64,000 nt of DNA from an uncultured cyanobacterium (GCA_963710605.1 CAVQBA010000004.1:576001-640000); one strand, 5' to 3'. Positions 46,257 through 64,000 are shown, counted from the stretch's first letter. Translations and numbers: made by a program. The notes: generated from the letters alone by a model not told the origin.

Positions 46257-46265
46257 ACGAAGAAA

Positions 46266-46454
46266 CTATTCATCATCAAAACCTTTCCCCACTTGATAAC
46301 CTGTAAGGAATCCAAAAACACCAGTCATGGCTGACAATGATAAGGTTTCTAGTGTTGCCAAATTTTTATCGTGAAAACTTAAGTACCCTATCAAAGAAAA
46401 TAAAAAGATTAAAAAAATTAGAGCAACTTTAAAATCAGGATTACCTCCCCTCAT
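46266..46454 (-). CDS. Small two-TM protein (holin-like candidate)
   Basis: 62 aa, two hydrophobic segments; last gene of the minus-strand cluster. Confidence 0.5.
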   Translation of the reverse strand: MRGGNPDFKVALIFLIFLFSLIGYLSFHDKNLATLETLSLSAMTGVFGFLTGYQVGKGFDDE

Positions 46455-46752
46455 CTTGTTTATTGGCTTCTTCTAAAGCACTACTTAAAGTATTAATTGC
46501 TTTTTGTTGGTCTTGAATTGTTTGGTTTAAATTAAAGATCTCTTCTCTATAATCAGCCTGCCCATCGTATAAAATTTTGATCATTTGTTTGTCTTCTTGT
46601 ATCAAAGAATCAATTTTTTGACCATTTTGACTATGTAGAAAAGCGATCGCCGAAAAAATTGCGATTATAATGGCGACTCCTGTAGTAATAATATAACTAT
46701 CCATTTTTTTGTAGGCTAATATAATTGATAAGAAAATTTTATGAAATTTCAT
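46441..46752 (-). CDS. TM-anchored coiled-coil protein
   Basis: Hydrophobic segment then heptad-like C-terminus; overlaps both neighbours. Confidence 0.6.
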   Translation of the reverse strand: MKFHKIFLSIILAYKKMDSYIITTGVAIIIAIFSAIAFLHSQNGQKIDSLIQEDKQMIKILYDGQADYREEIFNLNQTIQDQQKAINTLSSALEEANKQDEGR

Positions 46753-47062
46753 TCTGAATTAAAATAACAGCCGATGGTGGGTAAATTATTTTTTCCTCAT
46801 CCATTTGTAACCCACAACATTTTTTACCTCTTAAATCAATCTTTTTCATTGAGGTATAAGTATCAAGTTGATTATCATACAGTCCCCATTGTCTTAATCC
46901 TCTAGGCTTTGCTTGCCAGTGGAGTAATTGAAATTTACCCGATAACTGAAAGTGGTTAATTATTGAATTGAAATCAACAATTATTTTATCTTTGTCTTCT
47001 GGTCTGTTACTCCAAGATATATTGAATTTAGCTTTATTTAGCTTGATTATACTCTGGTTCAT
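46739..47062 (-). CDS. Hypothetical element protein
   Basis: 107 aa, operonic packing. Confidence 0.65.
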   Translation of the reverse strand: MNQSIIKLNKAKFNISWSNRPEDKDKIIVDFNSIINHFQLSGKFQLLHWQAKPRGLRQWGLYDNQLDTYTSMKKIDLRGKKCCGLQMDEEKIIYPPSAVILIQNEIS

Positions 47063-47064
47063 TT

Positions 47065-47523
47065 TTAAACTTCTTTTCCCTCGTGAATACCATTTAAATT
47101 AGCTAAAGTGCAGTACAAAAATCCTTGGTTGATAACAGTATTTGGTCTTAGTTGCACGATCCAGTTATTGGAAATAATTAAAGGAGCAAACGAAATAATA
47201 TAAATTTCACCAAAATTTACAAAATTATTTTGTAAATTTAGTGTTGCTTCGTAATGATGGAAACTGCTGCTTGGATCTATCAAAGTTAACCTGATTTCAT
47301 CTGTCGGTGTGATCGCATTGACTTTTTTGATAGCTAAAGATTTTGCCATTAAATCAGCATTACTGATTCTAGAAGCGTGCCATTGTAATCGTTGGTTTGG
47401 TTGTAAGTTGCCTGTTATTAATAACTCGTATCTAGGTAAAGGCTCACTAGGATAAATAAATTTATTTACCTCATAAGATGCTCCGATCGTATTATTAGAC
47501 AGAGCTAGTGGGTTAATGTCCAT
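47065..47523 (-). CDS. Hypothetical, candidate virion protein
   Basis: 152 aa, alternating hydrophobic pattern suggesting beta strands; 2-3 nt gaps to neighbours. Confidence 0.65.
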   Translation of the reverse strand: MDINPLALSNNTIGASYEVNKFIYPSEPLPRYELLITGNLQPNQRLQWHASRISNADLMAKSLAIKKVNAITPTDEIRLTLIDPSSSFHHYEATLNLQNNFVNFGEIYIISFAPLIISNNWIVQLRPNTVINQGFLYCTLANLNGIHEGKEV

Positions 47524-47526: not shown

Positions 47527-48051
47527 TTATAAAAAAGGTAAAAGAAGTGAACTACCTGCGGTAAGTGGTGGTAGAGCCGTAGTGGAAAGCCCCCCTGTTA
47601 TTGGTATCAACGCTGATGACAAAGCAATAAGAGCGGTATTTTGAGCTAATTCATTACCAATTTCTAATGAATCAATTATTACTCTTTGTTTCTGCGTTTC
47701 TCGTATTTCTTCTATCTGTTCTTTTATCGTTTTCAGAGATATTTCAGGAAAGAAAGCATAAATTTCTATATTTATATTTTCTGTAGTTAGAAAAGCTCCA
47801 TATAATTTATCTGCTTCTTGATATTCTGAAGGAATGGGGTAAACAAAAAAACTATCAAGGGTATTGTTCTCATTCAAAATAATTAATTTGTTCTGAGTTG
47901 CTGAAACAGGAAACTGTAAATTAAAATCGATTACAATTTCATCTGATATATCAGGTGCTAACAGAAAAATAGCTGTTGCACCTGTTATTTCTTCTGTTCG
48001 ATTAATTTGTTGTCCTGTGGCTAACCCTGAGTAGATTCGTTTTATAGTCAT
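47527..48051 (-). CDS. Hypothetical, candidate virion protein with hydrophobic C-terminus
   Basis: 174 aa; beta-like N-domain, short coiled coil, hydrophobic tail. Confidence 0.65.
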   Translation of the reverse strand: MTIKRIYSGLATGQQINRTEEITGATAIFLLAPDISDEIVIDFNLQFPVSATQNKLIILNENNTLDSFFVYPIPSEYQEADKLYGAFLTTENINIEIYAFFPEISLKTIKEQIEEIRETQKQRVIIDSLEIGNELAQNTALIALSSALIPITGGLSTTALPPLTAGSSLLLPFL

Positions 48052-48053: not shown

Positions 48054-48482
48054 CTATGATGATTCAATTTTGTTAGGTCTAATTTCCGAAAATCGCTTTT
48101 CACCAAAGTATCGCAAACAACTACCAATATTTAAAGGATTAAACTTATTTTTAACAATAAACAGTATTTCTCTCAAGCAATTAGCTGTACCTATTGTTGG
48201 TGGTTCAGGCACGTAAATAGTTACTTGAGCTTTACCTGTTGCATTATCTGGTTCTTCGTACTCTGTTACAGTTCGTCTCAAGTTGCTTGGATCACCCCAA
48301 ATTTTATCTTTTACTCTTTTTTGTTCTGCCAATTGAAAGCAATTAGGCAAATCAATAAACCTATTTCCTAAAATATCTTTATCGATTCTTTGAGTACGAA
48401 TAAATTGTTGTCCGTTATCAGCCGTATAGACAAATTTTATTACTTCATACCTTCTTGTTTTAGCTGGAGGTAAAAGTGCCAT
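48054..48482 (-). CDS. Hypothetical, Y-x-x-D-x-G / RR / C-x-x-Y-x-GE paralog family
   Basis: YTADNG...NLRR...CLRYFGE. Confidence 0.7.
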   Translation of the reverse strand: MALLPPAKTRRYEVIKFVYTADNGQQFIRTQRIDKDILGNRFIDLPNCFQLAEQKRVKDKIWGDPSNLRRTVTEYEEPDNATGKAQVTIYVPEPPTIGTANCLREILFIVKNKFNPLNIGSCLRYFGEKRFSEIRPNKIESS

Positions 48483-48844
48483 TATAATTTCAGGTTTAAG
48501 AAATAATCATTAAATTGTTCGCCGATCGTTTCTAACTTGATTTGTAAATCATTAATCGCTTGAAAATCAATGTTTGTAAAAGGTTCGTAATATTCTAATT
48601 CAAAAATTGAATTATGATCTTCGATTAATATTCGTCTTTTTTTCTGGATTAATTTTGACTGACAGTAAGCCTTTTTATTGCCAGAAAATAGATTGTATCC
48701 ATCAATGGGGATATAATTTGAAACTTGCAATAATAAATCAGCAAAAGGGATAAAATCATTAGACTCTTTGTTAATCCCTTGAATGAACGGCTTTTCATTT
48801 TTTAAAATTATGCCAATATCTGTCTTATAATTGCAAAGAATCAT
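48482..48844 (-). CDS. Hypothetical, same paralog family
   Basis: YKTDIG...CQSKLIQKKRR...ETIGE. Confidence 0.7.
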   Translation of the reverse strand: MILCNYKTDIGIILKNEKPFIQGINKESNDFIPFADLLLQVSNYIPIDGYNLFSGNKKAYCQSKLIQKKRRILIEDHNSIFELEYYEPFTNIDFQAINDLQIKLETIGEQFNDYFLNLKL

Positions 48845-49596
48845 TATTCTCCAAAAACATAATAATCTTGTGCATTCTCTATTGAAGTACCTTCGTATCC
48901 GAGGCAGTTAAAATTAGTCATCACGGTTGCACCACAAGTTTTTATGTCTGTTTCAGTGTTTTGAGAGACAATTATTTGTCTACTAATTACTCCCCCTGTA
49001 GCTGAATTAGATCTTTGCCCCTTAAATCTACGAGGTTTAAGTCCACCGCCACTAATTCCGCAGGATAGTGCGTCTGAGCCTAATATTTTATCTAAACACT
49101 CTTGTTGTGCTACAAAAATAGAGCTTGGTAAAGTCTCGATCGATGTGTTTCTGATTATCGCATCATTTGCACCTCCGCCATCTAAATAATAGCGATATTG
49201 AAAACCAGATTTTGCTGGTTTCGTTGCACCATCAATTGGAGTGACAGCATAGTTGCCCCCTAAAATGCCAGGAGGAATTGCTTTCCATTTTTCTCCTTTA
49301 ATAACTATACAAGCTACATTTGGATTTGCTCCGTAAACACTAGCAAAAGAAGGTACTTGAGCCAGCGTAGGAATAGGTAACTCAATGGAAGTATTGTCAG
49401 TAAAAACTAAAATACCTTTTCTCATGGAAAACAATCGCCTAGCTCCACCACAACGAGGTGTTATAGCTGTCGGCAAAGGTTGAGAAAAAGGGACGGGTAC
49501 TTGTTCTTGGCGATCAACAGAAAATCTAATGTCAAAATAGAGATCACCAAAATCACTTTGATATTGATCTACTACGTAACTATCTTTATTAGCCAC
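48844..49596 (-). CDS. Hypothetical, tandem two-domain member of the paralog family (capsid-protein candidate)
   Basis: YQSDFG..C..FSMRK..CIVIKGE and YYLDGG..C..LKPRR..CLGYEG. Confidence 0.75.
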   Translation of the reverse strand: MANKDSYVVDQYQSDFGDLYFDIRFSVDRQEQVPVPFSQPLPTAITPRCGGARRLFSMRKGILVFTDNTSIELPIPTLAQVPSFASVYGANPNVACIVIKGEKWKAIPPGILGGNYAVTPIDGATKPAKSGFQYRYYLDGGGANDAIIRNTSIETLPSSIFVAQQECLDKILGSDALSCGISGGGLKPRRFKGQRSNSATGGVISRQIIVSQNTETDIKTCGATVMTNFNCLGYEGTSIENAQDYYVFGE

Positions 49597-49607: not shown

Positions 49608-49955
49608 CTATGCTTCTGGCACAATACTTGCTACTGTGCTGTCATAGGCTATGTCAGCGTTGACCGCAAAAATATTTCTGATTTGCCCTACATTTTGCTG
49701 TGCTAATGATTGAGTTTTAGTGATTGTCAATTCTGCGGGTTTTACGCTGTCAGCTAAAGCGTTAACGTTCGTGTTTGCTGTTTCTAACAAGACTCTAATT
49801 AGTTCCGCACCGTCACCAGTACTTGGTTCTGCTTCTGCGCTAGAAATTCCAGACAACGAAGTTAAAGGAATACAAATTGATTCTGCTGTTACTGAGCCAT
49901 TAGCGGCGACTAATTCGATACCAGAGAAAACAACGCTAGGTGAAATTTTAGGCAT
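49608..49955 (-). CDS. Hypothetical, candidate virion protein
   Basis: MPKISPS...; Ala/Ser-rich, first gene of the packed cluster. Confidence 0.7.
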   Translation of the reverse strand: MPKISPSVVFSGIELVAANGSVTAESICIPLTSLSGISSAEAEPSTGDGAELIRVLLETANTNVNALADSVKPAELTITKTQSLAQQNVGQIRNIFAVNADIAYDSTVASIVPEA

Positions 49956-50015
49956 AATGTGAAAAATCATTTTTTAATTCAATAATTTTCACTTTAACCA
50001 ACAAGAAAAAAAATG

Positions 50016-50237
50016 TCAAGGTCGATATAAGTCAATCTCTGTGAGAATTTCAGCGATTGGTTTTTCTGTTTTATGTTGTGTTTGCTGTGCTATTTTTTTT
50101 GCATTTAAAATAGTTAAATATCTTCTACCAGAATAATAAATAATACCTAAGTATCCATTTCGCTTTATTTGATTGGCAACATCATAGTAAGGCAAGTTTA
50201 AAATTTTTGCTAATGCAGCAGGTGAGATTAATTTCAT
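50016..50237 (-). CDS. Small HTH-like DNA-binding protein
   Basis: ISPAALAKILNLPYYDVANQIKRNG resembles an excisionase/HTH pattern. Confidence 0.5.
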   Translation of the reverse strand: MKLISPAALAKILNLPYYDVANQIKRNGYLGIIYYSGRRYLTILNAKKIAQQTQHKTEKPIAEILTEIDLYRP

Positions 50238-50400: not shown

Positions 50401-50706
50401 ATGCTTATCCGTAATCATGTAGAGTATTTGACAGACTCAAATGCAATTTTAAATATTATTGTAAAATATGAAGAAAATACAAATAATACTAGATTAAGTA
50501 TTGGTGGATTAAATCACAATCCTGTGGTTTGCGGGTTTACTTTAGAAAGAAAATCATTAACGCCTCGATATGTACAGCACAAATCACTTGGCAAAATCGT
50601 ATTCAAAACTCATTCAGCTTGGATTAGTTATATACAAGGGAATAAAGATAATATACAATCGGCTACAGGTGAACGTATAAATTGTACAGGTTTATATTTC
50701 ATCTAA
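50401..50706 (+). CDS. Hypothetical, opposite-strand member of the paralog family
   Basis: YLTDSN...CGFTLERKSLTPRYV...ATGE. Confidence 0.65.
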   Translation: MLIRNHVEYLTDSNAILNIIVKYEENTNNTRLSIGGLNHNPVVCGFTLERKSLTPRYVQHKSLGKIVFKTHSAWISYIQGNKDNIQSATGERINCTGLYFI

Positions 50707-51976
50707 CATCCCATTTTGCCGCACATACCCACTGTTTGTGTTCTTGATTCCACATTACAAGAGTTACAGAGTAAGGGAAAAAAGTTCCAGAGCTTACGGC
50801 GGGGGTGTTGGTAAAAGTCTTAGAGAAACTACCTTCAATACTCACCGATTCGGAGCAAAAACCATCAATCAAAGGTCCGACAACAGAATCTAAAAATGAT
50901 TCTTGATCATCTACGCTATTATATGTGGCAAAAGTTCTTAAAATACCAACTTGACTATATCCATCTGAGTTGATATTTTTTAGTTTTATTTGATGCAGTT
51001 TTTTTCCCATGTTCAAAGAGGTGGGTAAAACTGCTTTTATTTCTTCTACTGTATAATTAATTAATTCATCTTTGCAAAAAGGAATTGTCAACTCTTTTTT
51101 TCGCTTTCCATTGTCTATACTTGGATTATTAAATAAAATATGAATCTGAGTACCTTTACCTCCTTCTTTATCGTCATAAAGAGACAACGGGATGCAACAC
51201 TCACTATTTTCTGAATTAGATGTTAATTCAAAAGGTTCTGATTCAGGATCTATTTTTAGTGGAGGACAAGGTATTTTCGTTATTCCTCCTGTACCCAATA
51301 ATCCTGTAATTGCATAATTATCGATTATTGCATTACGATCGTTGTAATATTCCGATATTCTAGTAATTGCTTCAATTCCTAATATAGCTATAGGTTTTAA
51401 GTATTTTGGCAGTGGCAAAAGAAGAAAAGCTAGTTTAGCAGCATCTTTTATTTTATCTTCTGCTATTTCTCTTACGATTTCTTCAATGAGAGCGGTTGTT
51501 TCAGAGAGTAGGTTTTGCCAGAAATTTTGTTCAATTTCAGGGTCGCACCATGGAATTGGTTCTGTGAAATAAGGTCGAGCTAACAGACAGCCAAAAGTTC
51601 GATCGCTTAAACCTTCTTCAATCTGTATTTTATATTCAAACGTTGTATCACTGCTGTTATTGATTGGATTTTGATATTTCCTTTTTGGAATATCGGGAAA
51701 AGTAATCAGAGGATTAAGTTCGATAGTTAGGTTGGTATAAAGTCTACGTGGTGCAGGTTTCACCCTATTTTTTGGTGTTTGTATAGGTGAAGGGGTGGCA
51801 TTTGGAATAGGTTCAATCGATTCGGGCTTTAATGCCCAGTGTGGAACAGTTCCGCCGGCTACTGGTTCAGCATCGAAAAAGTCAATCAGAACTTCTGTCA
51901 GCACACCTACAGGACTAAATTTTATACCGTATTTAAGCAGACTCAAAGGCGATAATGTTTTTTTTAAATTAGGCAT
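50699..51976 (-). CDS. Hypothetical element protein with Pro-rich N-terminal region
   Basis: 425 aa, 2 nt after the upstream stop. Confidence 0.7.
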   Translation of the reverse strand: MPNLKKTLSPLSLLKYGIKFSPVGVLTEVLIDFFDAEPVAGGTVPHWALKPESIEPIPNATPSPIQTPKNRVKPAPRRLYTNLTIELNPLITFPDIPKRKYQNPINNSSDTTFEYKIQIEEGLSDRTFGCLLARPYFTEPIPWCDPEIEQNFWQNLLSETTALIEEIVREIAEDKIKDAAKLAFLLLPLPKYLKPIAILGIEAITRISEYYNDRNAIIDNYAITGLLGTGGITKIPCPPLKIDPESEPFELTSNSENSECCIPLSLYDDKEGGKGTQIHILFNNPSIDNGKRKKELTIPFCKDELINYTVEEIKAVLPTSLNMGKKLHQIKLKNINSDGYSQVGILRTFATYNSVDDQESFLDSVVGPLIDGFCSESVSIEGSFSKTFTNTPAVSSGTFFPYSVTLVMWNQEHKQWVCAAKWDVR

Positions 51977-51978: not shown

Positions 51979-53970
51979 TTATGGTTCTACTTCTTCTTCT
52001 TGATCTTCTTCTACAACAGCTTCATTAAATATGCCCATTAACACAGCTAAATTTTGCAGAATGGCCATATTTTGCTTTGTTAAATTTGGTGCGTCGGTTT
52101 GTAATTTCGGCAAAAGCATATCAGCTTCAATCTCTTCTCCGCCCAATCCTTCTTCTCCCGTTCCAACTTTCAAAACTTGATTGGTTAGCGGTAAACCTGT
52201 AGCTTTTAAATTTTGCAAAACAGCATTATAAATCTGCAAATTTAAATTTTTACTCTCAAAAATTGCACCTGAGATTGCCGATAACATATATGCTACCTCT
52301 GCTAATAGCCCGCCCATGCCTTCTATTTTACAAAACTGACTACCATCAGCACTAGGGAGAAAACTAGAACCCATTTCCTGCCAGTTCAACCCTTTATCTA
52401 AATCTTCCAAATAACTTTCGAAAACCTGTAAGAAGTTTTCGCATAAAATGAGATCGCCTTGCGTATAAACAATATTTTCGATATTCTCTTCGTTAGGATT
52501 GGCGATTTTATTCGATCGTTGTTGGTAAACTATTCCTGTCCTTTCTTCACTAGATAATCCTCCCAATTGCCCAGTTGTACCGCCACCTTTATTGTCTGCG
52601 AATTGTCCCCTAGCCCATCCATCGGGGATTGTAGCGGTTAGTTGCCCGTTTGATTCAGTTAGAGGAATTGAGTATCGTTGCCTAGTCGCAACAATTGATC
52701 CATCTAAGTTGAAGGCTACCCCATAAGCTTTACATAGAGTATCTAATCGCCTAGCAATATTCATGTATGCTTCATTTGCTTGATTATCATATGCAAATTC
52801 ACCCGCCCCTAAACAGGCGTGTATTTCGTCTATCTTTTGCAAAAAACTCATTTTATAAATTCCTTCTAATATAAAATCTTTTAATTTAAAGTGGTCTTCG
52901 AAAAAATCTTTTATTGCTTCTCTAATTTCTTGAGTTTTTCCTCTTTGAAGCCAATACCCTTTTATACTCCCTCCTACTGAAGAAAACTCACTGTAAACAT
53001 CGTCTAAAACAGATGAAAAGGTAGGAGATAAAAATACATCTCGAAAACTAAGAGAGACTAATGGTGTCCCTAAAAAAATATTTTGTCCGCTTTTTTTTTC
53101 GTGCAACATTCCAAAAACAGAAAACCCTTCATAAAAAGGTTCTTGTGTAAAAGAAAGTGTTGGAACATTATTTTTTAAGTTAGAAATATTTCGATAATCC
53201 AATGCTGGCGGCAAAATTAAAGAATCTAATGCCTCTTGATTGTTAGATGTAGCTTTCAAAGAATTAAAGCACCCGCCATTAACAATAACATCGCTACCGC
53301 TATTTCTATTGGAAAAAATATTTTGTAAGTCAAGCAAAGAAAAAGTTTGCTCAAATGATTTTGTCACAAGAGAAAATTGTTTAATCTTGTAATAATCATT
53401 TTCAAAATTACTAGGCAACACATTAGACAATTTTGAATAATTTCCCAATTCTTTTAGTATTGCTAAATCAGGTATATCAGGATTGCTCAATAATTCTGAA
53501 GGGATACCAAGTTGATTTTCTAATTTTTGGATATTAAAGGTGTCATTTCTTTCGATCGCACGTAGAAACCGATTGATATCTCCCAAAAAAGACATAAAAT
53601 CCCTGAAAAAGCTTAGCTCATTAGAATAATAAGAAAAATTTATGATAACTGAGTTTTCTGTGGCGGGCAAGACAATTTTGTCGTCTCCATGGTCAGAAAA
53701 ATCAGATAAATAAGTCCCTTCGAAATCGTACCTGTATTGTGGTGTTAGATTTTGAACTATTTTTTCATTTGCAAATAATTCAAGCCAAACTGACTTGACA
53801 TTATCTAAATAATCGATCGCATAATCAATATTTAAATTTTGCTCAAAGATATAAGCTGATTGTTGCAGTCTTGAAGTAATAGCATATTCGAACCAAAGCA
53901 ATTCACTCTCTAAGTTTTCATCAAAAAACCATAATAATTCTTTTCCGTTTGGAACTTCAGATAATCTCAT
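51979..53970 (-). CDS. Large hypothetical element protein
   Basis: 663 aa, ATGA overlap with the sulfotransferase; no Walker motif seen. Confidence 0.75.
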   Translation of the reverse strand: MRLSEVPNGKELLWFFDENLESELLWFEYAITSRLQQSAYIFEQNLNIDYAIDYLDNVKSVWLELFANEKIVQNLTPQYRYDFEGTYLSDFSDHGDDKIVLPATENSVIINFSYYSNELSFFRDFMSFLGDINRFLRAIERNDTFNIQKLENQLGIPSELLSNPDIPDLAILKELGNYSKLSNVLPSNFENDYYKIKQFSLVTKSFEQTFSLLDLQNIFSNRNSGSDVIVNGGCFNSLKATSNNQEALDSLILPPALDYRNISNLKNNVPTLSFTQEPFYEGFSVFGMLHEKKSGQNIFLGTPLVSLSFRDVFLSPTFSSVLDDVYSEFSSVGGSIKGYWLQRGKTQEIREAIKDFFEDHFKLKDFILEGIYKMSFLQKIDEIHACLGAGEFAYDNQANEAYMNIARRLDTLCKAYGVAFNLDGSIVATRQRYSIPLTESNGQLTATIPDGWARGQFADNKGGGTTGQLGGLSSEERTGIVYQQRSNKIANPNEENIENIVYTQGDLILCENFLQVFESYLEDLDKGLNWQEMGSSFLPSADGSQFCKIEGMGGLLAEVAYMLSAISGAIFESKNLNLQIYNAVLQNLKATGLPLTNQVLKVGTGEEGLGGEEIEADMLLPKLQTDAPNLTKQNMAILQNLAVLMGIFNEAVVEEDQEEEVEP

Positions 53971-56478: not shown

Positions 56479-56613
56479 ATGCAAAAATCGAATACCTTAA
56501 AACGAATAAGACGATATTTAAAACTAGCTTATGATTCTCTTCAAAAAATAGAGATTAAAGATAAGCAGTTGATCCTTTCAATAATTAAAGATTTAGTTGA
56601 GAAAATAAAATGA
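56479..56613 (+). CDS. 44-aa basic helical peptide (below ORF-track cutoff)
   Basis: MQKSNTLKRIRRYLKL...; ATGA overlap with the peptidase start. Confidence 0.45.
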   Translation: MQKSNTLKRIRRYLKLAYDSLQKIEIKDKQLILSIIKDLVEKIK

Positions 56614-57203
56614 GTACTTTAGAGGCGATTAACCGCCAATACGAAAGATTAAGAAAATACGATCGAGAGAATTTATCCCCTGAAGCCCTCATCGAAAAGG
56701 TACACGCCACAAAATGCAATTATTTCTCTCAAAGAGACAATTACAAGCAGCCACACCGTACCTGTAATAGCAGTAGTAATGCGATGTACCTTGATTGGCT
56801 ACTGAGAGTTTGCCAGATAAACGACGGCTTAGGGGGCGACGACGGGTACTTAAAAAAGGTTTTTTCTTTGGGTGATACAATCTATCATGGTGTCCAAACT
56901 CAAGTAATTAAGGATTACGGTATTTCTACGAAGTGGATGACCGATCGAGATGAACCTTTTATTTTGGAATTACTAAAAAAAGGATTTGTTGTCCCTTGCA
57001 ATATTTTACACAGAGGGAAATTGAATAATCCGAGAGGCGGTCATGTTATTTGTTTGGTTGGAATTTTCGGTAAAGAATTAGTAGCCCATGATCCATACGG
57101 GAGTCTGTGGAGTGGATACAAATATCATGATGGAAGTTACAGCAAAATTCACCAAAACATTTTCTTTACTCGTTGGCAAGGAGGCTATAGAATATTAGCT
57201 TAA
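56610..57203 (+). CDS. C39-like papain-fold peptidase (endolysin candidate)
   Basis: YFSQRDN...RTCNSSSNAM (Cys), GGHVI (His), AHDPYG (Asp). Confidence 0.8.
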   Translation: MSTLEAINRQYERLRKYDRENLSPEALIEKVHATKCNYFSQRDNYKQPHRTCNSSSNAMYLDWLLRVCQINDGLGGDDGYLKKVFSLGDTIYHGVQTQVIKDYGISTKWMTDRDEPFILELLKKGFVVPCNILHRGKLNNPRGGHVICLVGIFGKELVAHDPYGSLWSGYKYHDGSYSKIHQNIFFTRWQGGYRILA

Positions 57204-57384: not shown

Positions 57385-58038
57385 TTAAGATTTAAGTCGA
57401 TCGTACATCAAGGCATTTTGAATGATAAAAGCGTTCCCCAGTAAGACCGCAACAAAGGTTGTTAAATAGGTTAAAATTCCAAAGTATTCACTGATAAAAA
57501 TCATAAATATAAAAGGGAATAAAGTTATTAATATCATCAACAAAAACGATCTATATATCAACCAGAAATTGCCTTTTGTCATATTCCATGAATTTTCTAT
57601 GGACTGAGAAATATTGTAGTTATCAATAGCGATCGCTGTACTCATAAAATATAACTTAGGGAAAAAATACAATCCAGGAATAATTAAAAAAATAGTTCCA
57701 AAGACAAGAATAATTGTTGCAATTAAATTTCCCCAGAGTAAATTCCAAAATTTTTGAAAGCTCAAGCTAATAGACTTTAAGATTGTGATTTTTCTTCCTT
57801 GGTTGAAGCGAGAATGGAAAATATAAATTACCGAATAAAACAAGGGATAGGCTACTAAACCATTGAAAATATATAGAGTATTGAAAACAGCCCCTGACTC
57901 ATCAAGCATTAAAAAGAAAGTCAAGTATAAAGCAAAAATCGACGAGAATAAAGATATTTTTTTGTAAGTTTGACCGTAAAGATTAAACGTTTCCTTAGTA
58001 ATGTCGATCGCAGTAAATTTGTTAACCATGGTGGACAT
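57385..58038 (-). CDS. Polytopic membrane protein (accessory cargo)
   Basis: IFLIIPGLYF...SWNMTKGNFW pattern; ~5-6 TM segments. Confidence 0.7.
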   Translation of the reverse strand: MSTMVNKFTAIDITKETFNLYGQTYKKISLFSSIFALYLTFFLMLDESGAVFNTLYIFNGLVAYPLFYSVIYIFHSRFNQGRKITILKSISLSFQKFWNLLWGNLIATIILVFGTIFLIIPGLYFFPKLYFMSTAIAIDNYNISQSIENSWNMTKGNFWLIYRSFLLMILITLFPFIFMIFISEYFGILTYLTTFVAVLLGNAFIIQNALMYDRLKS

Positions 58039-58101: not shown

Positions 58102-58428
58102 TCACTTACCATGTAATACATAGTCAATAAAATTAGCGAACGCCTTTTCACAGTCTTTGTAATACTTAGATTGAGTACCGTAGGGCAAAGACTTCAGTGC
58201 TTTAGATTGATACTCAACTAAGGTGCTTTTGTCGATCGCATTTGGCTTCATCTCTAATAGCTTATCCTCATGTATTTGCTCAATTAAGTCAGCGATTGAT
58301 TGATTATTTTCTTTAGCTTTGTCTTTGAGATAATCGTAAGTTGAATCTGTTAGCCTAATACTCCTTATTTTACGTGCTTCGGCAGATTTCTTGATGAATC
58401 TACCTAATTGGTCTTTTTTCATTAGCAT
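58102..58428 (-). CDS. Ribbon-helix-helix (CopG-like) regulator
   Basis: KIRSIRLTDSTYDYLKDKAKENNQSIADLIE. Confidence 0.65.
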   Translation of the reverse strand: MLMKKDQLGRFIKKSAEARKIRSIRLTDSTYDYLKDKAKENNQSIADLIEQIHEDKLLEMKPNAIDKSTLVEYQSKALKSLPYGTQSKYYKDCEKAFANFIDYVLHGK

Positions 58429-58506: not shown

Positions 58507-58734
58507 TTAGCTTCCTTTTGCTAATAAAATTTTTGCCCGTTGGTAAACATCGTCTAAGTTTTCTTCAATCCAATCTTGCTTGAAGCAAAGAGGCGAATTA
58601 CTGCTATCGAACCAGAAAATTATTTGTTGTAATTTTTTCGAGTAGTTGATCGAAGTAACGGTTTTAATATTGATTAAGTTCCTGTCTAGTTTTCCGATTG
58701 GCGATTTTCCAGTTTTAAATGTTATTTCAATCAT
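58507..58734 (-). CDS. Hypothetical small protein
   Basis: 75-aa ORF between hairpins. Confidence 0.5.
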   Translation of the reverse strand: MIEITFKTGKSPIGKLDRNLINIKTVTSINYSKKLQQIIFWFDSSNSPLCFKQDWIEENLDDVYQRAKILLAKGS

Positions 58735-58812
58735 ATTATTAGTTAAACAAGCCGTGTATTACATGGCTTGTTTATAGTGTTTACACTTTGAGTAATTTTG
58801 TAGGCTATTTGA

Positions 58813-59055
58813 CTAGATTGGCTCTTCTATCATTGTGCGTATAAACCAATCACTTTCTTCAATCAGCTCTAATTCGATCGCATGATAAAAGCTAAGAGCC
58901 TTTATTACTTCCTCATGGGTGACTTTAAAATAATGCCACGAACTATTGTCCAAATGACAAACCAAAATTGTTTTGCCTTTGAGAGAATTAAGTATTTTAT
59001 GTGGATGACCGCCTTTTAGAAGGTAGGTTGTTTTTTGCTCTGTTTTAGTAATCAT
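58813..59055 (-). CDS. Hypothetical small protein
   Basis: 80-aa ORF between hairpins. Confidence 0.5.
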   Translation of the reverse strand: MITKTEQKTTYLLKGGHPHKILNSLKGKTILVCHLDNSSWHYFKVTHEEVIKALSFYHAIELELIEESDWFIRTMIEEPI

Positions 59056-59132
59056 GTTATTATTTAGCTAGTTTATGCGTCGAACGTTTAAGCCCCTCAG
59101 TATTGTTGTTACTGAAGGGCTATTGGGTTTAG

Positions 59133-59426
59133 TTAGTTGATCTCAATCATCTGCATTAACTGCTGTTCGATCGGATCTAAATGGGGTTTAGTTTCAATGG
59201 TTTTATTTCCACCTTGAAATATAAGCCCCATTGCCTTTTGTGCCTGTTCGCCGCTGATACGCCCGCTTTTATACAAACGGTGAACTGCTTTAAGATACTC
59301 CTGATCCGAATACTTCATTGCCTGCTTCTCTTCATGTTCTCTCATGAGTTCATCGCAACGTAACAAAGCACCACAGATAGTAGGGAGCGACTCAAACAAT
59401 CCTTTAGCTAAATTAAGCTCATTCAT
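59133..59426 (-). CDS. Hypothetical small protein
   Basis: 97-aa ORF. Confidence 0.55.
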   Translation of the reverse strand: MNELNLAKGLFESLPTICGALLRCDELMREHEEKQAMKYSDQEYLKAVHRLYKSGRISGEQAQKAMGLIFQGGNKTIETKPHLDPIEQQLMQMIEIN

Positions 59427-59981: not shown

Positions 59982-60272
59982 ATGGCAAACCTAAAAGAAT
60001 ACCTAGTAACAGTTGAAGTATCCACTACGTATCAAGTTCAATGCTTTGCTGAGTGCAAGAAAGACTTGAAACTATACGAAGACAACAAACATTTATTATC
60101 TGATGTAACACAGACGAGACTTAAGCAATTAGAGCAACCACGTATTTTCGCCGACTCTAATATCGAAGAAATCGACAGGTATATAACGATCGTTGACGTA
60201 GAAGACGTTGACACTTGGAGCAAAAAGCTCGATCGAGAAGCTTGTGAAGGCATGGGAGCTGATGAAGTATAA
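59982..60272 (+). CDS. Hypothetical early protein
   Basis: First gene of the rightward operon. Confidence 0.55.
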   Translation: MANLKEYLVTVEVSTTYQVQCFAECKKDLKLYEDNKHLLSDVTQTRLKQLEQPRIFADSNIEEIDRYITIVDVEDVDTWSKKLDREACEGMGADEV

Positions 60273-60298
60273 AAACAAATGCCATTTTAGGAAATCAG

Positions 60299-60655
60299 AT
60301 GAAAATTTTTAATTCTATCAAGAAAACGATTGACCAAATTATTACAAGCTGGACAGAACTACAAGAAACAATGGATACACCACCCAAAATAATCACCCAA
60401 GAGCAAAAATCAAACTACTCAGATTTTATCAACCGCAGACTTGATGACTTAGTAATCGCAACCGCATTCAAACATAACAGAACTCCCTTAGAGATCAAAC
60501 GATTCGCCTTTGAATTTATTTTTGCTGATTGGCTGGCGAAAACGATCGAGCTGGAAAGACAGAAAGGCTCAGAGCCTGACCTAGACAAATTATTTGTTGG
60601 TGGTATTGAGGAAATTTTGGAATCCAAAAAAAGAAGACAGGAACATGATGATTAA
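60299..60655 (+). CDS. Hypothetical early protein
   Basis: 118 aa, operonic. Confidence 0.55.
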   Translation: MKIFNSIKKTIDQIITSWTELQETMDTPPKIITQEQKSNYSDFINRRLDDLVIATAFKHNRTPLEIKRFAFEFIFADWLAKTIELERQKGSEPDLDKLFVGGIEEILESKKRRQEHDD

Positions 60656-61046
60656 CAATTCGCCTAAACCGACGAAAAAATTAAGCGATCGTGCTATCGC
60701 AATTTTAAAGCTGAATAATTACGGATGGCATCCAGACCTATCGATCTACTTTAATGGCATGGATTATAAAAGAGCCGTGAAACTGTGGCTAATTTTTCAG
60801 CGTGACATTAAAGATTTTAGCTATGCGGAGAATCTGGAAATCGATCGTAAAAAACTACATAAAGCTTTGTCTCAGCAATTGAACTGGTATTCAAGATTTA
60901 AAGCTCACCCTCAAGAATTTATTCACCAAATTAGAATCAATCAGAAGTCTAGATGGCGATTCGTGTACAAAGCGATCGCACCAGAACTAGAAGGGTTGTT
61001 CGCATCTCTTAGAGAAATTGAGCAATTAAGTTTATTTGAAAATTAA
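60645..61046 (+). CDS. Hypothetical early protein
   Basis: MMINNSP start overlapping the upstream stop. Confidence 0.55.
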   Translation: MMINNSPKPTKKLSDRAIAILKLNNYGWHPDLSIYFNGMDYKRAVKLWLIFQRDIKDFSYAENLEIDRKKLHKALSQQLNWYSRFKAHPQEFIHQIRINQKSRWRFVYKAIAPELEGLFASLREIEQLSLFEN

Positions 61047-61106
61047 CGCAAAAATAAAAGCCCCTGAGATGGGGCTTCGGATAATAAATTAAAGAGAGAA
61101 TTAACC

Positions 61107-63530
61107 ATGAAATCAACAATCAACCCTACTATTAATTATACCAAAAAAGAGTTAATCAAAAGCATTAATTCTGTTGAATTAGCAACAAAAAATGCTTCTT
61201 TAATTGAGTCGAAAAAAATAGATAATTATTTATCCGAGAAAACAAAAAGCACTAGTACAATCGAAACCTACTATACGCCACTAGAAAAAACTACCAGAAT
61301 TTGGAATGGAAAAACAGAAGAAAAAATTGTATTTCCTAAACACCTAAATCACCGTAGTAATACATGGGAGAACGGCATCGGCGGCAGTACTTGGATGCCT
61401 TATCAGAATAAACTATTTTCTGAAGCTACCAACAAATGGTGCTTAATTCACGAGGGAGAAAAGTCGGCTGATTTTGCTTTATCTAAGGGGATTGTAAGCA
61501 CCTGTCTTGTCGGTGCAAAAGCTAAAGATTACAATTTTATTGCTCAAGCAATCGAACTAATGAAATTGGTATCGATGAAAGGTGCTATTTACTTAGCTGA
61601 TGAAGATGAAGCTGGTTTAAGTAAAGCTAAATTTTTTCAAGAGGTAGCATATCAAGAGAATTTTCTTGTTTTAATTTTACCTGTTAATTTCTTCTATCCT
61701 GAAGCAAAAAGAAACGATGACTTTGCCGATTTTGTAATTAATAATCCTAATTTATCTACTGAAGAAATAATCAATAATATAGAAGATAAAATCAAAAAAT
61801 TCGGTTCAGCTTTAGCAACCGATTACCTCTCTTGCAAGCCGATTGAAAAATCCGAAGAAGAGAAACAAGCGGAGGTGCTAGAAACAGCTAAAGATATTTT
61901 GTTAAACGAGTCGAACGAAATCAAACAATTTCTTCGCCTCGAAAAATTGCGTAAAACAACTAAATTCAGCGAGTCGCAATGGGAGAATAAAATATTAAAA
62001 GCCTTAAAAAAAGAGACAAGGGGCGATCGCTTAAAACTTGATTTAAAATATTATGATCAAGAAGAAGATGTGATAAAAAAACTCGAACTTAAACAAAAAA
62101 TTTGCGGACGATATTACCTGAGTTCAAGAGATTTTGAGGATATAAATTATAACCTAGCATCAAAGGAAAGCGAGCCAGATAAAAAAGTATTTTCTTTTGA
62201 TGAATTTATGGGGTTAGGGGTAGCCAAACAATCTTGGATTGTTCCTTCTTTTTTACCTGAAGCATCAATGTTGCTTTTATGTGCGGCGGCTAAAAATGGT
62301 AAGAGTTTGATGGCATCCGATTTAGCTTACTCAATTATTACTGGCGGAACATTTTTGAATCAGCAAGCCAAAAAAGGGAAAGTATTATATGTTTGTAGTG
62401 ATGAGTTACCACGAGATTTTATTCGCAGACTACAGTCTCGTGGCTTCGATTTAATACCAAATATCAATGATAATCTAAGAGTAATCACTCACCTTGATTT
62501 GTACAATCTCAAAGAACTAGAGAAGCAATTAGAAGACTTCAGACCAGATTGCACAATCATTGATTCACTTACCTCAATTAGCTTATCAGCTAACATTAGC
62601 GAGAATAGTGCAGATTATGCGAAACAAGCGTATAAGCTAAAAGATTTGCTCGGTAAATACGGCTCAGCATCTGTATTGATCCATCATCAAAATAAAAACG
62701 TTGACGCACAAGGACTAAATAAAGTATCGGGATCAGCTCGAATCACGGCTGTACCTTGGGGAATCGCTCAATTATCGGGAGGTAATTCTGATATTGAAGA
62801 ATCTAATATTCGTTACCTAGAACTACAGCCAAGAGAAGGTGAGCCAGCCAAGTATCAATTATCTATCAACCCTCGTGATTCTTGGATTGAAGATGGTATT
62901 TTCAAGTTTGATTGTGACTTTGACGATCCTAATGGTAAAAAGAAATCGTTGGGCGAACAGATTTTGGCTTTTCTCGATGATGAGCAACCTAAAGAATATT
63001 CAGAAATAAATGAATACATGAATCTCGGCAAAGGACTTTATAAAATATTGGATTATTTATGTGAACGAAGATTAATTAATCGCCAAAGAAGTAAAAATAA
63101 TCCTAAAAGATGGACTTATTCTATTGACACTCATTCGCAAGTGAAAAATGAGACAGGGGGGGGGGGTAAAAAAAATTCACCCCCCCCCCTAGTCAAACTC
63201 AAAAATTCGATAAAAAGCCAGTCAAAATCAATCACAGAAGACAATACAGCCAATAACGAAGAAAATGGTCAAAGTGAAAATTATCAAGATTTCATGACAA
63301 ACAACCTAACTTTGACGAGTGCTTCTTGTTGCGAAAATAGTGACATTAATGACAATGAAGAAGAGCGAAAAGACATCCTAGAAATGATCAATGATTCAGT
63401 TGAACATCTTAATGATGGTAGAGAAAAAATCAAGATTTTTAGCCAAGGAAAAATGCTTAGTACCCTTACGAATAAGGAATTAATGGCTATATTAGAAATG
63501 ATATGGGAGGAAATGGAAAAAGATGAGTAA
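61107..63530 (+). CDS. Toprim primase / RecA-like AAA (RepA-type) helicase fusion
   Basis: Toprim IHEGEKSAD, YLADEDEAG, DDFADF; Walker A AAAKNGKS, VLYVCSDE, Walker B IIDSL, IHHQNK, SGSARI. Confidence 0.85.
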   Translation: MKSTINPTINYTKKELIKSINSVELATKNASLIESKKIDNYLSEKTKSTSTIETYYTPLEKTTRIWNGKTEEKIVFPKHLNHRSNTWENGIGGSTWMPYQNKLFSEATNKWCLIHEGEKSADFALSKGIVSTCLVGAKAKDYNFIAQAIELMKLVSMKGAIYLADEDEAGLSKAKFFQEVAYQENFLVLILPVNFFYPEAKRNDDFADFVINNPNLSTEEIINNIEDKIKKFGSALATDYLSCKPIEKSEEEKQAEVLETAKDILLNESNEIKQFLRLEKLRKTTKFSESQWENKILKALKKETRGDRLKLDLKYYDQEEDVIKKLELKQKICGRYYLSSRDFEDINYNLASKESEPDKKVFSFDEFMGLGVAKQSWIVPSFLPEASMLLLCAAAKNGKSLMASDLAYSIITGGTFLNQQAKKGKVLYVCSDELPRDFIRRLQSRGFDLIPNINDNLRVITHLDLYNLKELEKQLEDFRPDCTIIDSLTSISLSANISENSADYAKQAYKLKDLLGKYGSASVLIHHQNKNVDAQGLNKVSGSARITAVPWGIAQLSGGNSDIEESNIRYLELQPREGEPAKYQLSINPRDSWIEDGIFKFDCDFDDPNGKKKSLGEQILAFLDDEQPKEYSEINEYMNLGKGLYKILDYLCERRLINRQRSKNNPKRWTYSIDTHSQVKNETGGGGKKNSPPPLVKLKNSIKSQSKSITEDNTANNEENGQSENYQDFMTNNLTLTSASCCENSDINDNEEERKDILEMINDSVEHLNDGREKIKIFSQGKMLSTLTNKELMAILEMIWEEMEKDE

Positions 63531-64000
63531 TAGAGCAAAAAAAGGAACTATTACGATCGATAGTTATCGGGGAATGCTCAGGCTCAGGCTACCTCGATCG
63601 TGGTTTAATGGAAAGTTGAAGTTTTTCTCTTTGGGGCTGTCCGATACCCCACAAAATCAAATTGTTGCTTTGACTAAATCTTCTCAAATGCAATTAGATT
63701 ACATTAGCGGTTGCTTTGACTTTTCATTAGAAAAATATAAATTGGCGACTTTGCCAGAAGGGAAAATCAATCTGATTGAATTATTTGAAAAATTTACAGA
63801 ATATAAAATAAAAATCCTTAAACAAAGTTCTCATCATAATTTTAAAGCTACTCTCAATAAATTGAAAGATGTTCCTCAAAATATAGTATCTGAGCCTTCT
63901 AAGCTTAGACTTTGGATGAGTGAACATAACACACAAAAACAGGCTCGAAGGTACATGGCGAGAATTGTTTCTTGCTATAATTGGGCGATTGAAAGCGGAT
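63523..64000 (+). CDS. Tyrosine recombinase/integrase, N-terminal part (truncated by window)
   Basis: Open frame MSNRAKKGTI...LRLRLPR...SLGLSDTPQN...FDFSLEKY (cyanobacterial arm-binding domain)...SCYNWAIESG; catalytic domain not in window. Confidence 0.8.
   Translation, partial: MSNRAKKGTITIDSYRGMLRLRLPRSWFNGKLKFFSLGLSDTPQNQIVALTKSSQMQLDYISGCFDFSLEKYKLATLPEGKINLIELFEKFTEYKIKILKQSSHHNFKATLNKLKDVPQNIVSEPSKLRLWMSEHNTQKQARRYMARIVSCYNWAIESG

What the first reader, a model, noticed from the sequence alone, without database searches (positions are those of the whole stretch)
46257..64000. Compact tRNA-integrated virus-like element with no recognisable tailed-phage or filamentous-phage packaging genes
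Seen: a left att (tRNA 3' half), then ~10 kb of tightly packed, mostly minus-strand unassignable genes, a divergent C39 peptidase, a small-gene block, an XRE repressor divergent from a primase-helicase, and an integrase start. Established: integrases usually lie next to one att site, so most of the element is probably visible. Not seen: terminase, portal, HK97-type capsid, tape measure, tail genes, or a Zot/FtsK/A32 ATPase; the only Walker A I found is in the primase. Inference: either a ~19-kb temperate virus with an unfamiliar, possibly tailless morphogenetic module, or a satellite carrying its own structural genes.
Basis: partly seen in the sequence, partly recalled or inferred. Interest (0 to 1): 0.92.

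Follow-up and report, generated by a model that had tools for sequence, protein, structure and literature searches.

The report
Unclassified virus-like element in a cyanobacterium
An 18.6-kb mobile element inserted in a methionine tRNA gene of a cyanobacterium has the switch, replication, host-recognition and cell-lysis genes of a temperate virus but none of the particle-building or DNA-packaging genes known from any virus, and it belongs to a small, undescribed family of such elements.

Summary
An exact 49-bp direct repeat (window 46208-46256, and 791-839 bases past the window end, inside an intact tRNA-Met(CAT)) bounds an 18.6-kb element. It carries a tyrosine integrase, a primase-helicase, XRE-like and Arc-like regulators, a C39-like endolysin with cyanophage homologues, and about 10 kb of minus-strand genes. 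Apart from a glycosyltransferase and a sulfotransferase, these match nothing in Pfam, PHROGs, the PDB or 50,697 phage genomes.

The element has relatives. 12 of 401 genomes of the same order carry its hallmark protein, including a 32.5-kb circular plasmid record and a 17.1-kb contig with overlapping ends. All share a four-gene block (222 aa, fibre-like, 663 aa, 425 aa), followed by one of two unrelated sets of late genes and a lysis gene.

The hallmark C-terminal domain folds confidently, matches no known fold and is predicted to trimerise. No terminase, portal, HK97 capsid or packaging ATPase was found in the element, its relatives or the host genome.

Best reading (0.5): a temperate virus of an undescribed lineage. 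Main rival (0.2): a satellite. No particle has been shown.

The parts
46208..46256 (-). Left attachment-site repeat (49 bp): displaced 3' part of tRNA-Met(CAT)
   Evidence: Exact copy at C4 640791-640839, inside the intact tRNA
46266..46454 (-). 62-aa protein with hydrophobic segments and a charged C-end; holin-like (inferred)
   Evidence: One 19-residue hydropathy window passed the threshold (residue 4 on); a second hydrophobic stretch and the charged end are read by eye from the sequence. Last gene of the late operon. No family hit
46441..46752 (-). 103-aa protein: N-terminal membrane helix plus a heptad-like C-terminal half (by eye); same position and build as the 113-122-aa proteins of relatives
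   Evidence: XhlA (lysis-associated) matched 3 of 101 proteins of relatives, but which ones is not known. No sequence similarity to this ORF
46739..47062 (-). F8, 107 aa, unknown late protein
   Evidence: Orthologues in G002, G011:C6 and G438; no family
47065..47523 (-). 152 aa, unknown late protein
   Evidence: Positional counterparts of 145-150 aa in relatives, no detectable similarity
47527..48051 (-). F9, 174 aa, unknown late protein with a hydrophobic C-end
   Evidence: Orthologues in 3 relatives; only chance-level PHROG hits, E 0.004-0.005
48054..48482 (-). F15, 142 aa, unknown late protein
48482..48844 (-). F16, 120 aa, unknown late protein
48844..49596 (-). F5, 250 aa, conserved cysteine-rich late protein; candidate particle protein (inferred)
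   Evidence: Only 9 proteins including itself among 5.8 billion clusters; 6 invariant Cys; AF2 model poor, pLDDT 52.6; no PDB, phage or Atlas match
49608..49970 (-). F6, 120 aa, acidic, Ala/Ser/Val-rich by eye; sits next to F5 in every type-A element
50016..50237 (-). F17, 73 aa, basic; possible DNA-binding protein at the junction of the two late blocks (inferred)
   Evidence: Conserved position; pI 9.7; no family
50401..50706 (+). F7, 101 aa, basic, opposite strand, at the junction of the two late blocks
   Evidence: Orthologues in 4 relatives, always at the junction
50699..51976 (-). F1, 425 aa: hydrophobic N-end, Pro-rich linker, conserved C-terminal domain
   Evidence: Present in 11 of 12 loci compared; alignment; no Pfam, PHROG or PDB hit
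51979..53970 (-). F0, 663 aa, hallmark protein: variable N-terminal part plus conserved C-terminal domain (aa ~365-660) predicted to trimerise
   Evidence: 154 representatives at E<=1e-3; 0 of 40 members hit PHROGs and 1 of 40 hit any Pfam family; AF2 pLDDT >90 over most of ~400-650; no fold match; trimer score 0.72 against best control 0.08
53967..54440 (-). Sulfotransferase (157 aa), accessory gene
   Evidence: PF17784 E 3.3e-21; a homologue at the same position in G603
54407..55084 (-). GT2 glycosyltransferase (225 aa), accessory gene
   Evidence: PF00535 E 3.1e-7; same position in G002 and the GBBB08 contig
55088..55793 (-). F3, fibre-like gene: conserved N-end, variable body, (GGGS)n tail. 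Here the ATG at 55793 is out of frame with the rest by one base at a C4 run (55766-55769)
   Evidence: relatives give weak PHROG hits to a tail protein (E 2.9e-7) and a hydrolase (E 2.8e-4)
55794..56462 (-). F2, 222 aa (probable start at the ATG at 56423), first gene of the shared four-gene block
   Evidence: In 9 of 12 loci; alignment; no family or PDB hit
56610..57203 (+). C39-like peptidase endolysin
   Evidence: phrog_10051 E 2e-51; Peptidase_C39_2 at 23.7 bits against a cut-off of 24; homologues in 84 phage records, all Synechococcus phages or cyanophages
57385..58038 (-). Membrane protein, UPF0259-like (217 aa)
   Evidence: PF06790 E 2e-7; 4 hydrophobic segments
58102..58428 (-). Arc/ribbon-helix-helix-like regulator
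   Evidence: phrog_3178 E 1.1e-5; RHH_4 E 4.6e-4, below its cut-off
58507..59426 (-). Three small ORFs (75, 80, 97 aa); the 97-aa one is conserved in G002 and G011:C6
59577..59930 (-). Repressor-like protein, divergent from the early operon
   Evidence: phrog_3 transcriptional repressor E 1.3e-5
59982..61046 (+). Three small early ORFs (96, 118, 150 aa)
   Evidence: no family
61107..63530 (+). Primase-helicase (807 aa) with the only Walker A motif of the element
   Evidence: AAA_25 E 2.6e-18; phrog_906 and phrog_239
63523..64000 (+). Tyrosine integrase, N-terminal 159 aa (full gene runs to window-equivalent 64605; right att and tRNA-Met at 64791-64869)

Best explanation
This is the integrated form of a temperate virus from an undescribed lineage of cyanobacterial dsDNA elements.

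Shown:
- The element sits in tRNA-Met between exact 49-bp repeats, next to a tyrosine integrase.
- It carries a repressor-like gene divergent from an early operon (three small ORFs, primase-helicase, integrase).
- It carries a long leftward late operon.
- It carries a phage-type endolysin.
- Close and distant relatives exist both integrated at tRNA genes and as circular molecules of 17 and 32 kb.

Inferred life cycle:
- The repressor keeps the early operon silent.
- On induction, the integrase excises the element and the primase-helicase replicates the circle.
- The late operon then makes a host-recognition set and particle proteins. The host-recognition set is F2, the fibre-like F3, the trimeric F0 with its variable N-terminal part, and F1. 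The particle proteins are F6, F5 and five small proteins.
- The 62-aa and 103-aa membrane proteins, together with the endolysin, open the cell.

How DNA gets into a particle is unknown. No dedicated packaging ATPase exists. Packaging would therefore be by co-assembly around the genome, or would use the only ATPase present (the primase-helicase).

The glycosyltransferase and sulfotransferase inside the late operon are accessory. They probably modify a surface polysaccharide of the lysogen or the fibre itself.
For: - Integration anatomy.
- Switch and replication genes.
- Endolysin: phrog_10051 E 2e-51, with homologues in 84 of 84 matching phage records that are cyanophages.
- Lysis-type proteins close the late operon in relatives: GH19 is annotated in the plasmid record, PG_binding plus GH19 occurs in G042, and XhlA matched 3 of 101 proteins.
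- Fibre-like F3 has a conserved N-end, a variable body and weak tail-protein hits in relatives.
- F0 C-terminal domain: confident fold and predicted trimer. Score 0.72 against best control 0.08; the mark was reached by 20 of 30 solved pairs and 1 of 23 single chains; contact agreement at least 89%; pLDDT at least 72.
- Family conservation: the hallmark is in 12 of 401 genomes of the order and 5 of 401 of the phylum sample, the own genome included.
- Synteny holds across 12 loci.
- Circular relatives: the 32,475-bp plasmid record carries SSB, Gp157, helicase, DUF3987 and methylase genes; a 17,237-bp contig has a 95-bp end overlap.
- No resident helper is visible. Terminase_6N, TerL_ATPase, Phage_capsid and Phage_portal each gave 0 hits in the own genome, which is 84.9% complete.
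Against: - No capsid-like fold, portal or packaging ATPase was identified, so no gene is shown to build a particle.
- The AF2 model of F5 is poor (pLDDT 52.6). As far as it goes it is mixed alpha/beta, not a jelly roll.
- Neither hallmark was found in IMG/VR viral contigs by pattern scan, nor in PHROGs.
- No CRISPR spacer evidence: 0 of the 10 short DNA matches in relatives that I inspected (of about 20 under 60 bases returned) lies in a repeat array.
- The int / repressor / primase-helicase layout is also that of satellites.
- The fibre-like gene is out of frame in this copy.
Confidence: 0.5

Rival explanations
1. The element is a phage satellite (PICI-, PLE- or tycheposon-like). It integrates and replicates on its own but is packaged in the capsid of an unidentified helper cyanophage. 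Its conserved ORFs of unknown function redirect or decorate the helper particle and supply its own fibres and lysis functions.
For: - The int, repressor and primase-helicase at a tRNA gene, and the 18.6-kb size, fit the layout described for PICIs and PICI-like tycheposons (passages read in bioRxiv 10.1101/2020.12.28.424599).
- No capsid, portal or terminase gene is present.
- Satellites made almost wholly of ORFans are known (PLE of Vibrio cholerae; recalled, not checked here).
Against: - No terS or capsid gene of the kind that marks PICI-like elements was found.
- The element has its own endolysin and holin-like genes, and 12 or more conserved late genes.
- The circular 32.5-kb relative carries a phage-sized replication set.
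- No helper prophage marker was found in the own genome, though only 4 families were tried and the genome is 84.9% complete. An outside helper cannot be excluded.
Confidence: 0.2
2. The element is a non-viral integrative or plasmid element. Its late operon encodes secreted or surface proteins (for example a fibre-like bacteriocin or adhesin set with glycosylation and sulfation enzymes), released by a lysis cassette.
For: - No capsid or packaging gene was found.
- One relative is deposited as a plasmid.
- Glycosyltransferase and sulfotransferase genes lie in the operon.
- F1 and F9 have hydrophobic ends.
Against: - The regulatory, replication and lysis genes are all of phage type.
- The conserved order of about 12 late genes ending in lysis genes is that of a virus late operon.
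- The plasmid record is typed non-mobilizable and has no conjugation gene annotated.
Confidence: 0.12
3. The element is a very divergent tailed phage (Caudoviricetes) whose terminase, portal and HK97-fold capsid protein are too diverged for profile searches to recognise.
For: - The fibre-like gene, the lysis cassette and a run of small late genes recall a head-tail connector region.
- The secondary-structure order of the F0 C-terminal domain (helix, short hairpin, 39-residue helix, hairpin, terminal helix) loosely recalls a portal stem and clip. That resemblance is recalled, not tested.
Against: - Apart from the primase-helicase, no ORF of 80 codons or more has a Walker A motif, in this element, in G002 or in the GBBB08 contig.
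- No terminase, portal or capsid hit came from Pfam or PHROGs for this element, or for 101 orthologues.
- The late module of this type has no protein over 290 aa besides F0 and F1.
- The confident F0 domain gave no Foldseek hit at E<=1e-3 in PDB or BFVD.
Confidence: 0.08

Closest known systems
Temperate tailless phages of about 17-19 kb (Thermus phages IN93 / P23-77, Matsushitaviridae; recalled, not fetched here)
   Same: Small dsDNA genome of similar size. Temperate members carry an integrase. A compact late operon ends in lysis genes. A small and a larger late protein are encoded side by side (here F6 of 120 aa and F5 of 250 aa).
   Different: Those phages have two single-jelly-roll capsid proteins and an A32/FtsK-type packaging ATPase. 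Here no ATPase exists outside the primase-helicase. No jelly-roll protein was recognised, and the low-confidence F5 model is mixed alpha/beta.
PICI-like satellites and tycheposons of marine cyanobacteria (bioRxiv 10.1101/2020.12.28.424599; passages read)
   Same: A tyrosine integrase at a tRNA gene with a partial tRNA as the second att, a primase/helicase replication module, a size of 10-20 kb, and tandem remnants at the same site (G002).
   Different: By that paper, PICI-like forms carry a terS or a capsid gene and tycheposons lack capsids and lysis. This element has neither terS nor a recognisable capsid gene. It does have about 12 conserved late genes, fibre-like genes and its own endolysin.
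Phage-plasmids / episomal prophages
   Same: Relatives occur as circular replicons: pGM3709_05, 32,475 bp, and a 17.1-kb circular contig without an integrase. They carry phage-type replication genes.
   Different: Known phage-plasmids are tailed phages with standard head and tail genes. None is annotated or detected here.
Plasmaviridae (Acholeplasma phage L2; recalled)
   Same: A small integrating dsDNA virus without a capsid protein or packaging ATPase. This shows that such a gene set can still make infectious particles.
   Different: L2 buds from wall-less cells without lysis. This host has a cell wall and outer membrane, and the element carries an endolysin and holin-like genes.

Membership tests
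Caudoviricetes (tailed phages) | Large terminase (ATPase plus nuclease) | tested here: not met
   No Pfam or PHROG terminase hit for any ORF of 60 aa or more, nor for 101 orthologues. No Walker A outside the primase-helicase. The test is by sequence only.
Caudoviricetes (tailed phages) | Portal protein | tested here: inconclusive
Caudoviricetes (tailed phages) | HK97-fold major capsid protein | tested here: inconclusive
   No sequence hit. Phage_capsid gave 0 hits in the whole genome. Only F5 was folded, and poorly.
Double- or single-jelly-roll tailless phages (Tectiviridae, Corticoviridae, Autolykiviridae, Matsushitaviridae) | FtsK/HerA (A32-like) packaging ATPase | tested here: not met
   No P-loop ORF besides the primase-helicase. 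No such Pfam or PHROG hit.
Double- or single-jelly-roll tailless phages | Jelly-roll major capsid protein | tested here: inconclusive
Inoviridae / filamentous phages | Zot-like assembly ATPase and rolling-circle Rep | tested here: not met
   Neither was found. The replication gene is a primase-helicase.
PICI-like satellites / tycheposons | Site-specific integrase at a tRNA gene plus an autonomous replication module, 10-20 kb | tested here: met
   the definition was taken from passages read.
PICI-like satellites / tycheposons | terS or capsid gene for hijacking a helper; dependence on a helper phage | tested here: not met
   No terS or capsid hit. Helper dependence itself cannot be tested with these tools.
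Temperate phage (generic) | Integrase with att sites, a repressor-type switch and a lysis cassette | tested here: met
   This rests on homology and anatomy; function was not tested.
Temperate phage (generic) | Genes that build an infectious particle | not testable with these tools
   Only indirect signs were found: fibre-like F3, F0 predicted to trimerise, and a conserved late operon.

The most novel reading that the evidence does not exclude
These elements are a new lineage of bacterial dsDNA viruses. Their particle is built from proteins unrelated to any known capsid lineage (neither HK97 nor jelly-roll), and their genome is enclosed without a dedicated packaging ATPase. The lineage has two exchangeable 'body' modules attached to one conserved trimeric host-recognition set. 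It lives both integrated at tRNA genes and as a plasmid in unicellular cyanobacteria.
Probability: 0.3. Interest if true: 0.92.

Novelty: new variant of a known kind. Interest (0 to 1): 0.74.

Why it matters
Nearly all known cyanobacterial viruses are tailed phages, and provirus finders rely on their capsid and terminase genes. This element family has clean ends, complete circular relatives and a full set of phage-type switch, replication and lysis genes. Yet its 12 or more conserved late proteins match nothing known by sequence, and the one confidently folded domain matches no known fold. The family is absent from PHROGs and was not found in IMG/VR or the phage collection.

If particles are made, they would define a new virion architecture and a packaging mode without a dedicated motor. 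If the element is a satellite, it would be the first of its kind in non-marine unicellular cyanobacteria. It would also point to an unknown helper phage.

One relative sits as a plasmid in a culture-collection strain, so the question can be tested directly at the bench.

Tried and rejected
Searches that found nothing:
- tblastn against the phage collection: no match for the 250-aa protein, the 663-aa protein, the 531-aa F12, a 480-aa neighbour in G560 or the 331-aa F3 of G011:C6.
- Pattern scans with the F5 alignment: IMG/VR and GTDB genomes, none.
- Pattern scans with the F0 alignment: IMG/VR none; genome contigs one locus; metagenome contigs none in two scans.
- ESM Atlas: no usable lead.
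- PDB sequence and profile searches: nothing at E<=0.01, and only two chance-level rows (E about 0.5) at E<=1, for the F5, F0, F1, F2 and F12 alignments. Nothing for two F3 members or the 320-aa ORF of the circular contig.

Fold searches:

Profile comparisons:
- hhalign between type-A and type-B late families: all 72 pairs at probability 5% or less.
- hhalign among type-A families: best 12%.
- F12 against F5 with deeper alignments: 0.1%.

Other checks:
- Sequencing runs: none was listed, so excision and expression could not be examined.
- CRISPR: the short matches in the own genome are not in arrays. 0 of the 10 short matches in relatives that I inspected, of about 20 under 60 bases returned, lies in a repeat array.
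- Promoter-like sites are at chance level (75 against 72.8 expected); terminator-like sites number 19 against 9.4 expected.

Literature (full-text searches; listings and abstracts seen):
- I found no description of this element family.
- One paper on Cyanobacterium aponinum UTEX 3222 only counts PhiSpy prophage candidates (passages read). Its supplement with the predictions could not be seen and may list the related locus.
- These searches cover only the held library.

Earlier findings of this scan: nothing near this place or like the F0 sequence. Two word-search hits concern unrelated elements in other genomes.

Full report
**1. The observation**

The window holds no intact tRNA. It lies at G000:C4:576001-640000, so I read the next 15 kb of the contig.

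An intact tRNA-Met(CAT) lies 798-869 bases past the window end, on the minus strand. The 49 bases at window 46208-46256 are repeated exactly at C4 640791-640839, which is window-equivalent 64791-64839. The repeat covers the tRNA from 2 nt before the anticodon to 7 nt past its 3' end. The left copy is therefore the displaced 3' part of the gene, as expected after integration into a tRNA.

The integrase ORF that starts at 63523 runs to 64605 (360 aa; phrog_1 E 1.4e-41). Nothing else lies between it and the tRNA. The element is 18,632 bp including both repeats. Its G+C content does not differ from the surroundings.

**2. Gene content**

All ORFs of 60 aa or more were scanned against Pfam and PHROGs. 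The assignable genes are:
- Integrase.
- Primase-helicase, 61107-63530 (AAA_25 E 2.6e-18; phrog_906 and phrog_239).
- A repressor-like protein, 59577-59930 (phrog_3 E 1.3e-5), divergent from the early operon.
- An Arc/RHH-like protein, 58102-58428.
- A UPF0259-like membrane protein, 57385-58038.
- A GT2 glycosyltransferase and a sulfotransferase, 53967-55084.
- The C39-like protein, 56610-57203. It is a phage endolysin family member (phrog_10051 E 2e-51). Its homologues in the phage collection are all in Synechococcus phages or cyanophages (84 of 84 records, 39% identity at best).

The other 15 minus-strand ORFs between 46266 and 56462 gave no hit at E<=0.001. The only rows up to E 0.01 are three chance-level PHROG hits (E 0.004-0.01).

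The only Walker A motif in an ORF of 80 codons or more is in the primase-helicase.

Between 55088 and 55793 lies a further gene that ORF lists miss. An ATG at 55793 overlaps the stop codon of the 222-aa gene and opens an 11-codon frame. The remaining 232 codons are open in the neighbouring frame. The two frames meet at a C4 run at 55766-55769. Its homologues in relatives are uninterrupted. This copy therefore carries a one-base frame change, which is either real or a homopolymer sequencing error.

**3. Relatives**

The 250-aa protein (F5) has only 9 relatives, itself included, among 5.8 billion protein clusters. All are unnamed or 'hypothetical'.

The 663-aa protein (F0) has 154 representatives at E<=1e-3 among 1.84 billion. 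All of them match only its C-terminal ~290 residues. Some of these proteins consist of that domain alone. Of 40 members scanned, 1 hit any Pfam family (a carbohydrate-binding module) and none hit PHROGs.

A profile of F0 found matches in 5 of 401 genomes sampled from the phylum and in 12 of 401 sampled from the order, the own genome included. The matches fall in at least six families. Most genomes of the host's own family lack it (3 of 19).

I fetched 12 loci and clustered their ORFs. Four genes occur together and in the same order in nearly all loci:
- F2 (222 aa here).
- F3 (the fibre-like gene).
- F0.
- F1 (425 aa here, up to 630 aa elsewhere).

One of two sets of late genes lies next to this block:
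- Type A is found here and in G002, G011:C6, G438 and G603. It consists of F7, F17, F6, F5, F16, F15, F9, a ~150-aa protein and F8.
- Type B is found in two elements of G042 and in G513, with a decayed remnant beside the G002 element. It consists of 115-, 531-, 146-, 197-, 78- and 121-aa proteins.

The two sets show no profile similarity: all 72 family pairs scored a probability of 5% or less, and F12 against F5 scored 0.1%. In G438 and G603 the type-A set is transcribed divergently from the four-gene block. The small basic F7 and F17/F37 proteins sit at the junction, so the two parts are separate units.

In relatives the late genes end with a cell-wall hydrolase:
- GH19 is annotated in the plasmid record.
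- PG_binding_1 plus GH19 occurs in G042.

XhlA, a phage lysis-associated membrane protein family, matched 3 of the 101 orthologues scanned.

The elements occur in several states:
- G002 has the same integrase (44% identity) and primase-helicase (34%) as this element.
- One G042 element abuts a tRNA-Met and the other lies near a tRNA-Phe.
- A relative is deposited as the circular 32,475-bp plasmid pGM3709_05 of Geminocystis sp. NIES-3709. It carries SSB, Gp157-family, DEAD-box helicase, DUF3987, DNA methylase and small serine recombinase genes, and no annotated capsid, portal, terminase or conjugation gene. G011:C6 has the same length and match coordinates, so I count the two as one.
- The 17,237-bp contig G513:C93 has identical first and last 95 bases, the usual sign of a circular molecule of about 17.1 kb. 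It holds a complete type-B gene set with primase and endolysin. None of its ORFs clusters with the integrases of the other loci, and its 320-aa ORF is unrelated to this element's integrase. The remaining ORFs of that contig were not scanned against Pfam.

Whole genomes of the family are therefore in view, and they lack known morphogenetic genes.

**4. What the late proteins are**

For F0, AlphaFold2 with 128 sequences gave a confident C-terminal domain (pLDDT above 90 over most of 400-650) and an unpredictable N-terminal part (pLDDT below 50 for 54-97 and 106-322).

The domain's order of elements is: helices, a small sheet, a 39-residue helix (552-590), a long hairpin and a terminal helix. It found no partner in three searches:
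- Foldseek against the PDB: 0 hits at E<=1e-3.
- Foldseek against BFVD: 0 hits.

The caveat is that the model was searched whole (663 residues), not as a single domain.

Three copies of residues 365-663 were predicted to associate. The score was 0.72 against a best control of 0.08. The mark was reached by 20 of 30 solved pairs and 1 of 23 single chains in the tool's calibration. Contact agreement was at least 89% and pLDDT at least 72. Same-residue contacts run along the long helix, that is, a parallel three-helix core. This supports a trimer but does not show one.

A conserved trimerising C-terminal domain under a variable N-terminal part is the build of a receptor-binding or spike-type protein. 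In some genomes the domain is encoded as a separate gene. That functional reading is inference.

F3 has a conserved ~40-residue N-end, a variable body and Gly/Ser-rich tails. Its relatives give weak PHROG hits to a tail protein (E 2.9e-7 over 34 residues), a hydrolase and a minor head protein, but no PDB or phage-collection hit. I call it fibre-like on architecture only.

F1 has a hydrophobic N-end, a proline-rich linker and a conserved C-terminal domain.

F5 has 6 invariant cysteines. Its model is poor (pLDDT 52.6) and its fold search is empty.

**5. Tests of the rival readings**

Tailed phage:
- No terminase, portal or capsid hit in this element, nor in 101 orthologues.
- No second P-loop.
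- The type-A set holds nothing larger than about 290 aa.

Jelly-roll tailless phage or filamentous phage:
- No packaging or assembly ATPase.
- No rolling-circle Rep.

Satellite:
- The integrase, repressor and primase-helicase layout at a tRNA fits PICI-like elements and tycheposons as described in the passages I read.
- Against this, there is no terS or capsid gene.
- The element has its own lysis genes and a dozen conserved late genes.
- The four tailed-phage marker families I tried have no hit anywhere in the host assembly, which is 84.9% complete.
- An external helper cannot be excluded.

Non-viral island:
- The plasmid relative is typed non-mobilizable and has no transfer genes.
- Every assignable gene is of phage type.

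**6. What could not be tested**

- No public sequencing run was listed for this DNA, so excision and expression are untested.
- No CRISPR spacer match was found among the few candidates inspected.
- The hallmark genes were not found in IMG/VR or in the JGI metagenome contigs by pattern scan. The protein databases nonetheless hold metagenomic homologues on contigs of 10-35 kb, which I could not fetch.

**7. Verdict**

The most likely reading (0.5) is a temperate virus of an undescribed lineage. Its host-recognition set is conserved, its particle proteins are unrecognisable, and it has no dedicated packaging motor. A satellite is the main rival (0.2), followed by a non-viral element (0.12) and a very divergent tailed phage (0.08).

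I rate it a new variant of a known kind (a tRNA-integrating temperate element). There is a 0.3 chance that it is a categorically new virion type.

In five full-text searches I found no description of this family. Those searches cover only the held library, and the supplement of one paper could not be seen.

Noticed in passing
window 55758-55796: The fibre-like gene F3 starts with an ATG that overlaps the TAA of the preceding 222-aa gene. After 11 codons it is out of frame with the remaining 232 codons, and the shift sits at a C4 run (55766-55769). Homologues in four relatives are uninterrupted. The shift is a real mutation, slippage or a homopolymer sequencing error.
   Followed up: partly
window 55093-55215: A 12-bp tandem repeat of 10.2 copies encodes the (GGGS)n tail of the fibre-like protein. 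Homologues in G002 and the GBBB08 contig also end in Gly/Ser runs.
   Followed up: partly
L006 52-3626 and G002:C1 2452136-2453119: Beyond the integrase of the intact type-A element in G002 lies a decayed type-B element: a partial 531-aa family gene, F20, F13, F14, an endolysin, and an F0 copy with 7 stop codons. This indicates successive integrations at one site.
   Followed up: partly
G016:C141 29858-32511 (same genus as the window): A tRNA-Met lies next to DNA that is 67% identical to this element's primase-helicase region over 1.6 kb. That genome (67% complete) gave no F0 or F5 match. It may hold a related element at the same tRNA with other late genes, or the assembly may be fragmented there.
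   Followed up: no
window 53967-55084: A sulfotransferase and a GT2 glycosyltransferase sit inside the late operon, between the fibre-like gene and F0. GT2 is at the same place in G002 and the GBBB08 contig, and a sulfotransferase homologue is there in G603. They may modify sulfated surface polysaccharide of the lysogen or the fibre.
   Followed up: no
(homologues of the 531-aa type-B protein): Seven of 14 homologues lie on contigs of 10.0-12.5 kb. This narrow size range could reflect complete small genomes of type-B elements. The contigs could not be fetched.
   Followed up: no
window 44074-45828: The left flank holds a MurG-type glycosyltransferase (GT28 N and C domains, E 1e-34 to 4e-35) and a 171-aa membrane protein. 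These are ordinary host genes, and a terminator-like hairpin at 45870-45892 closes them before the att site.
   Followed up: no
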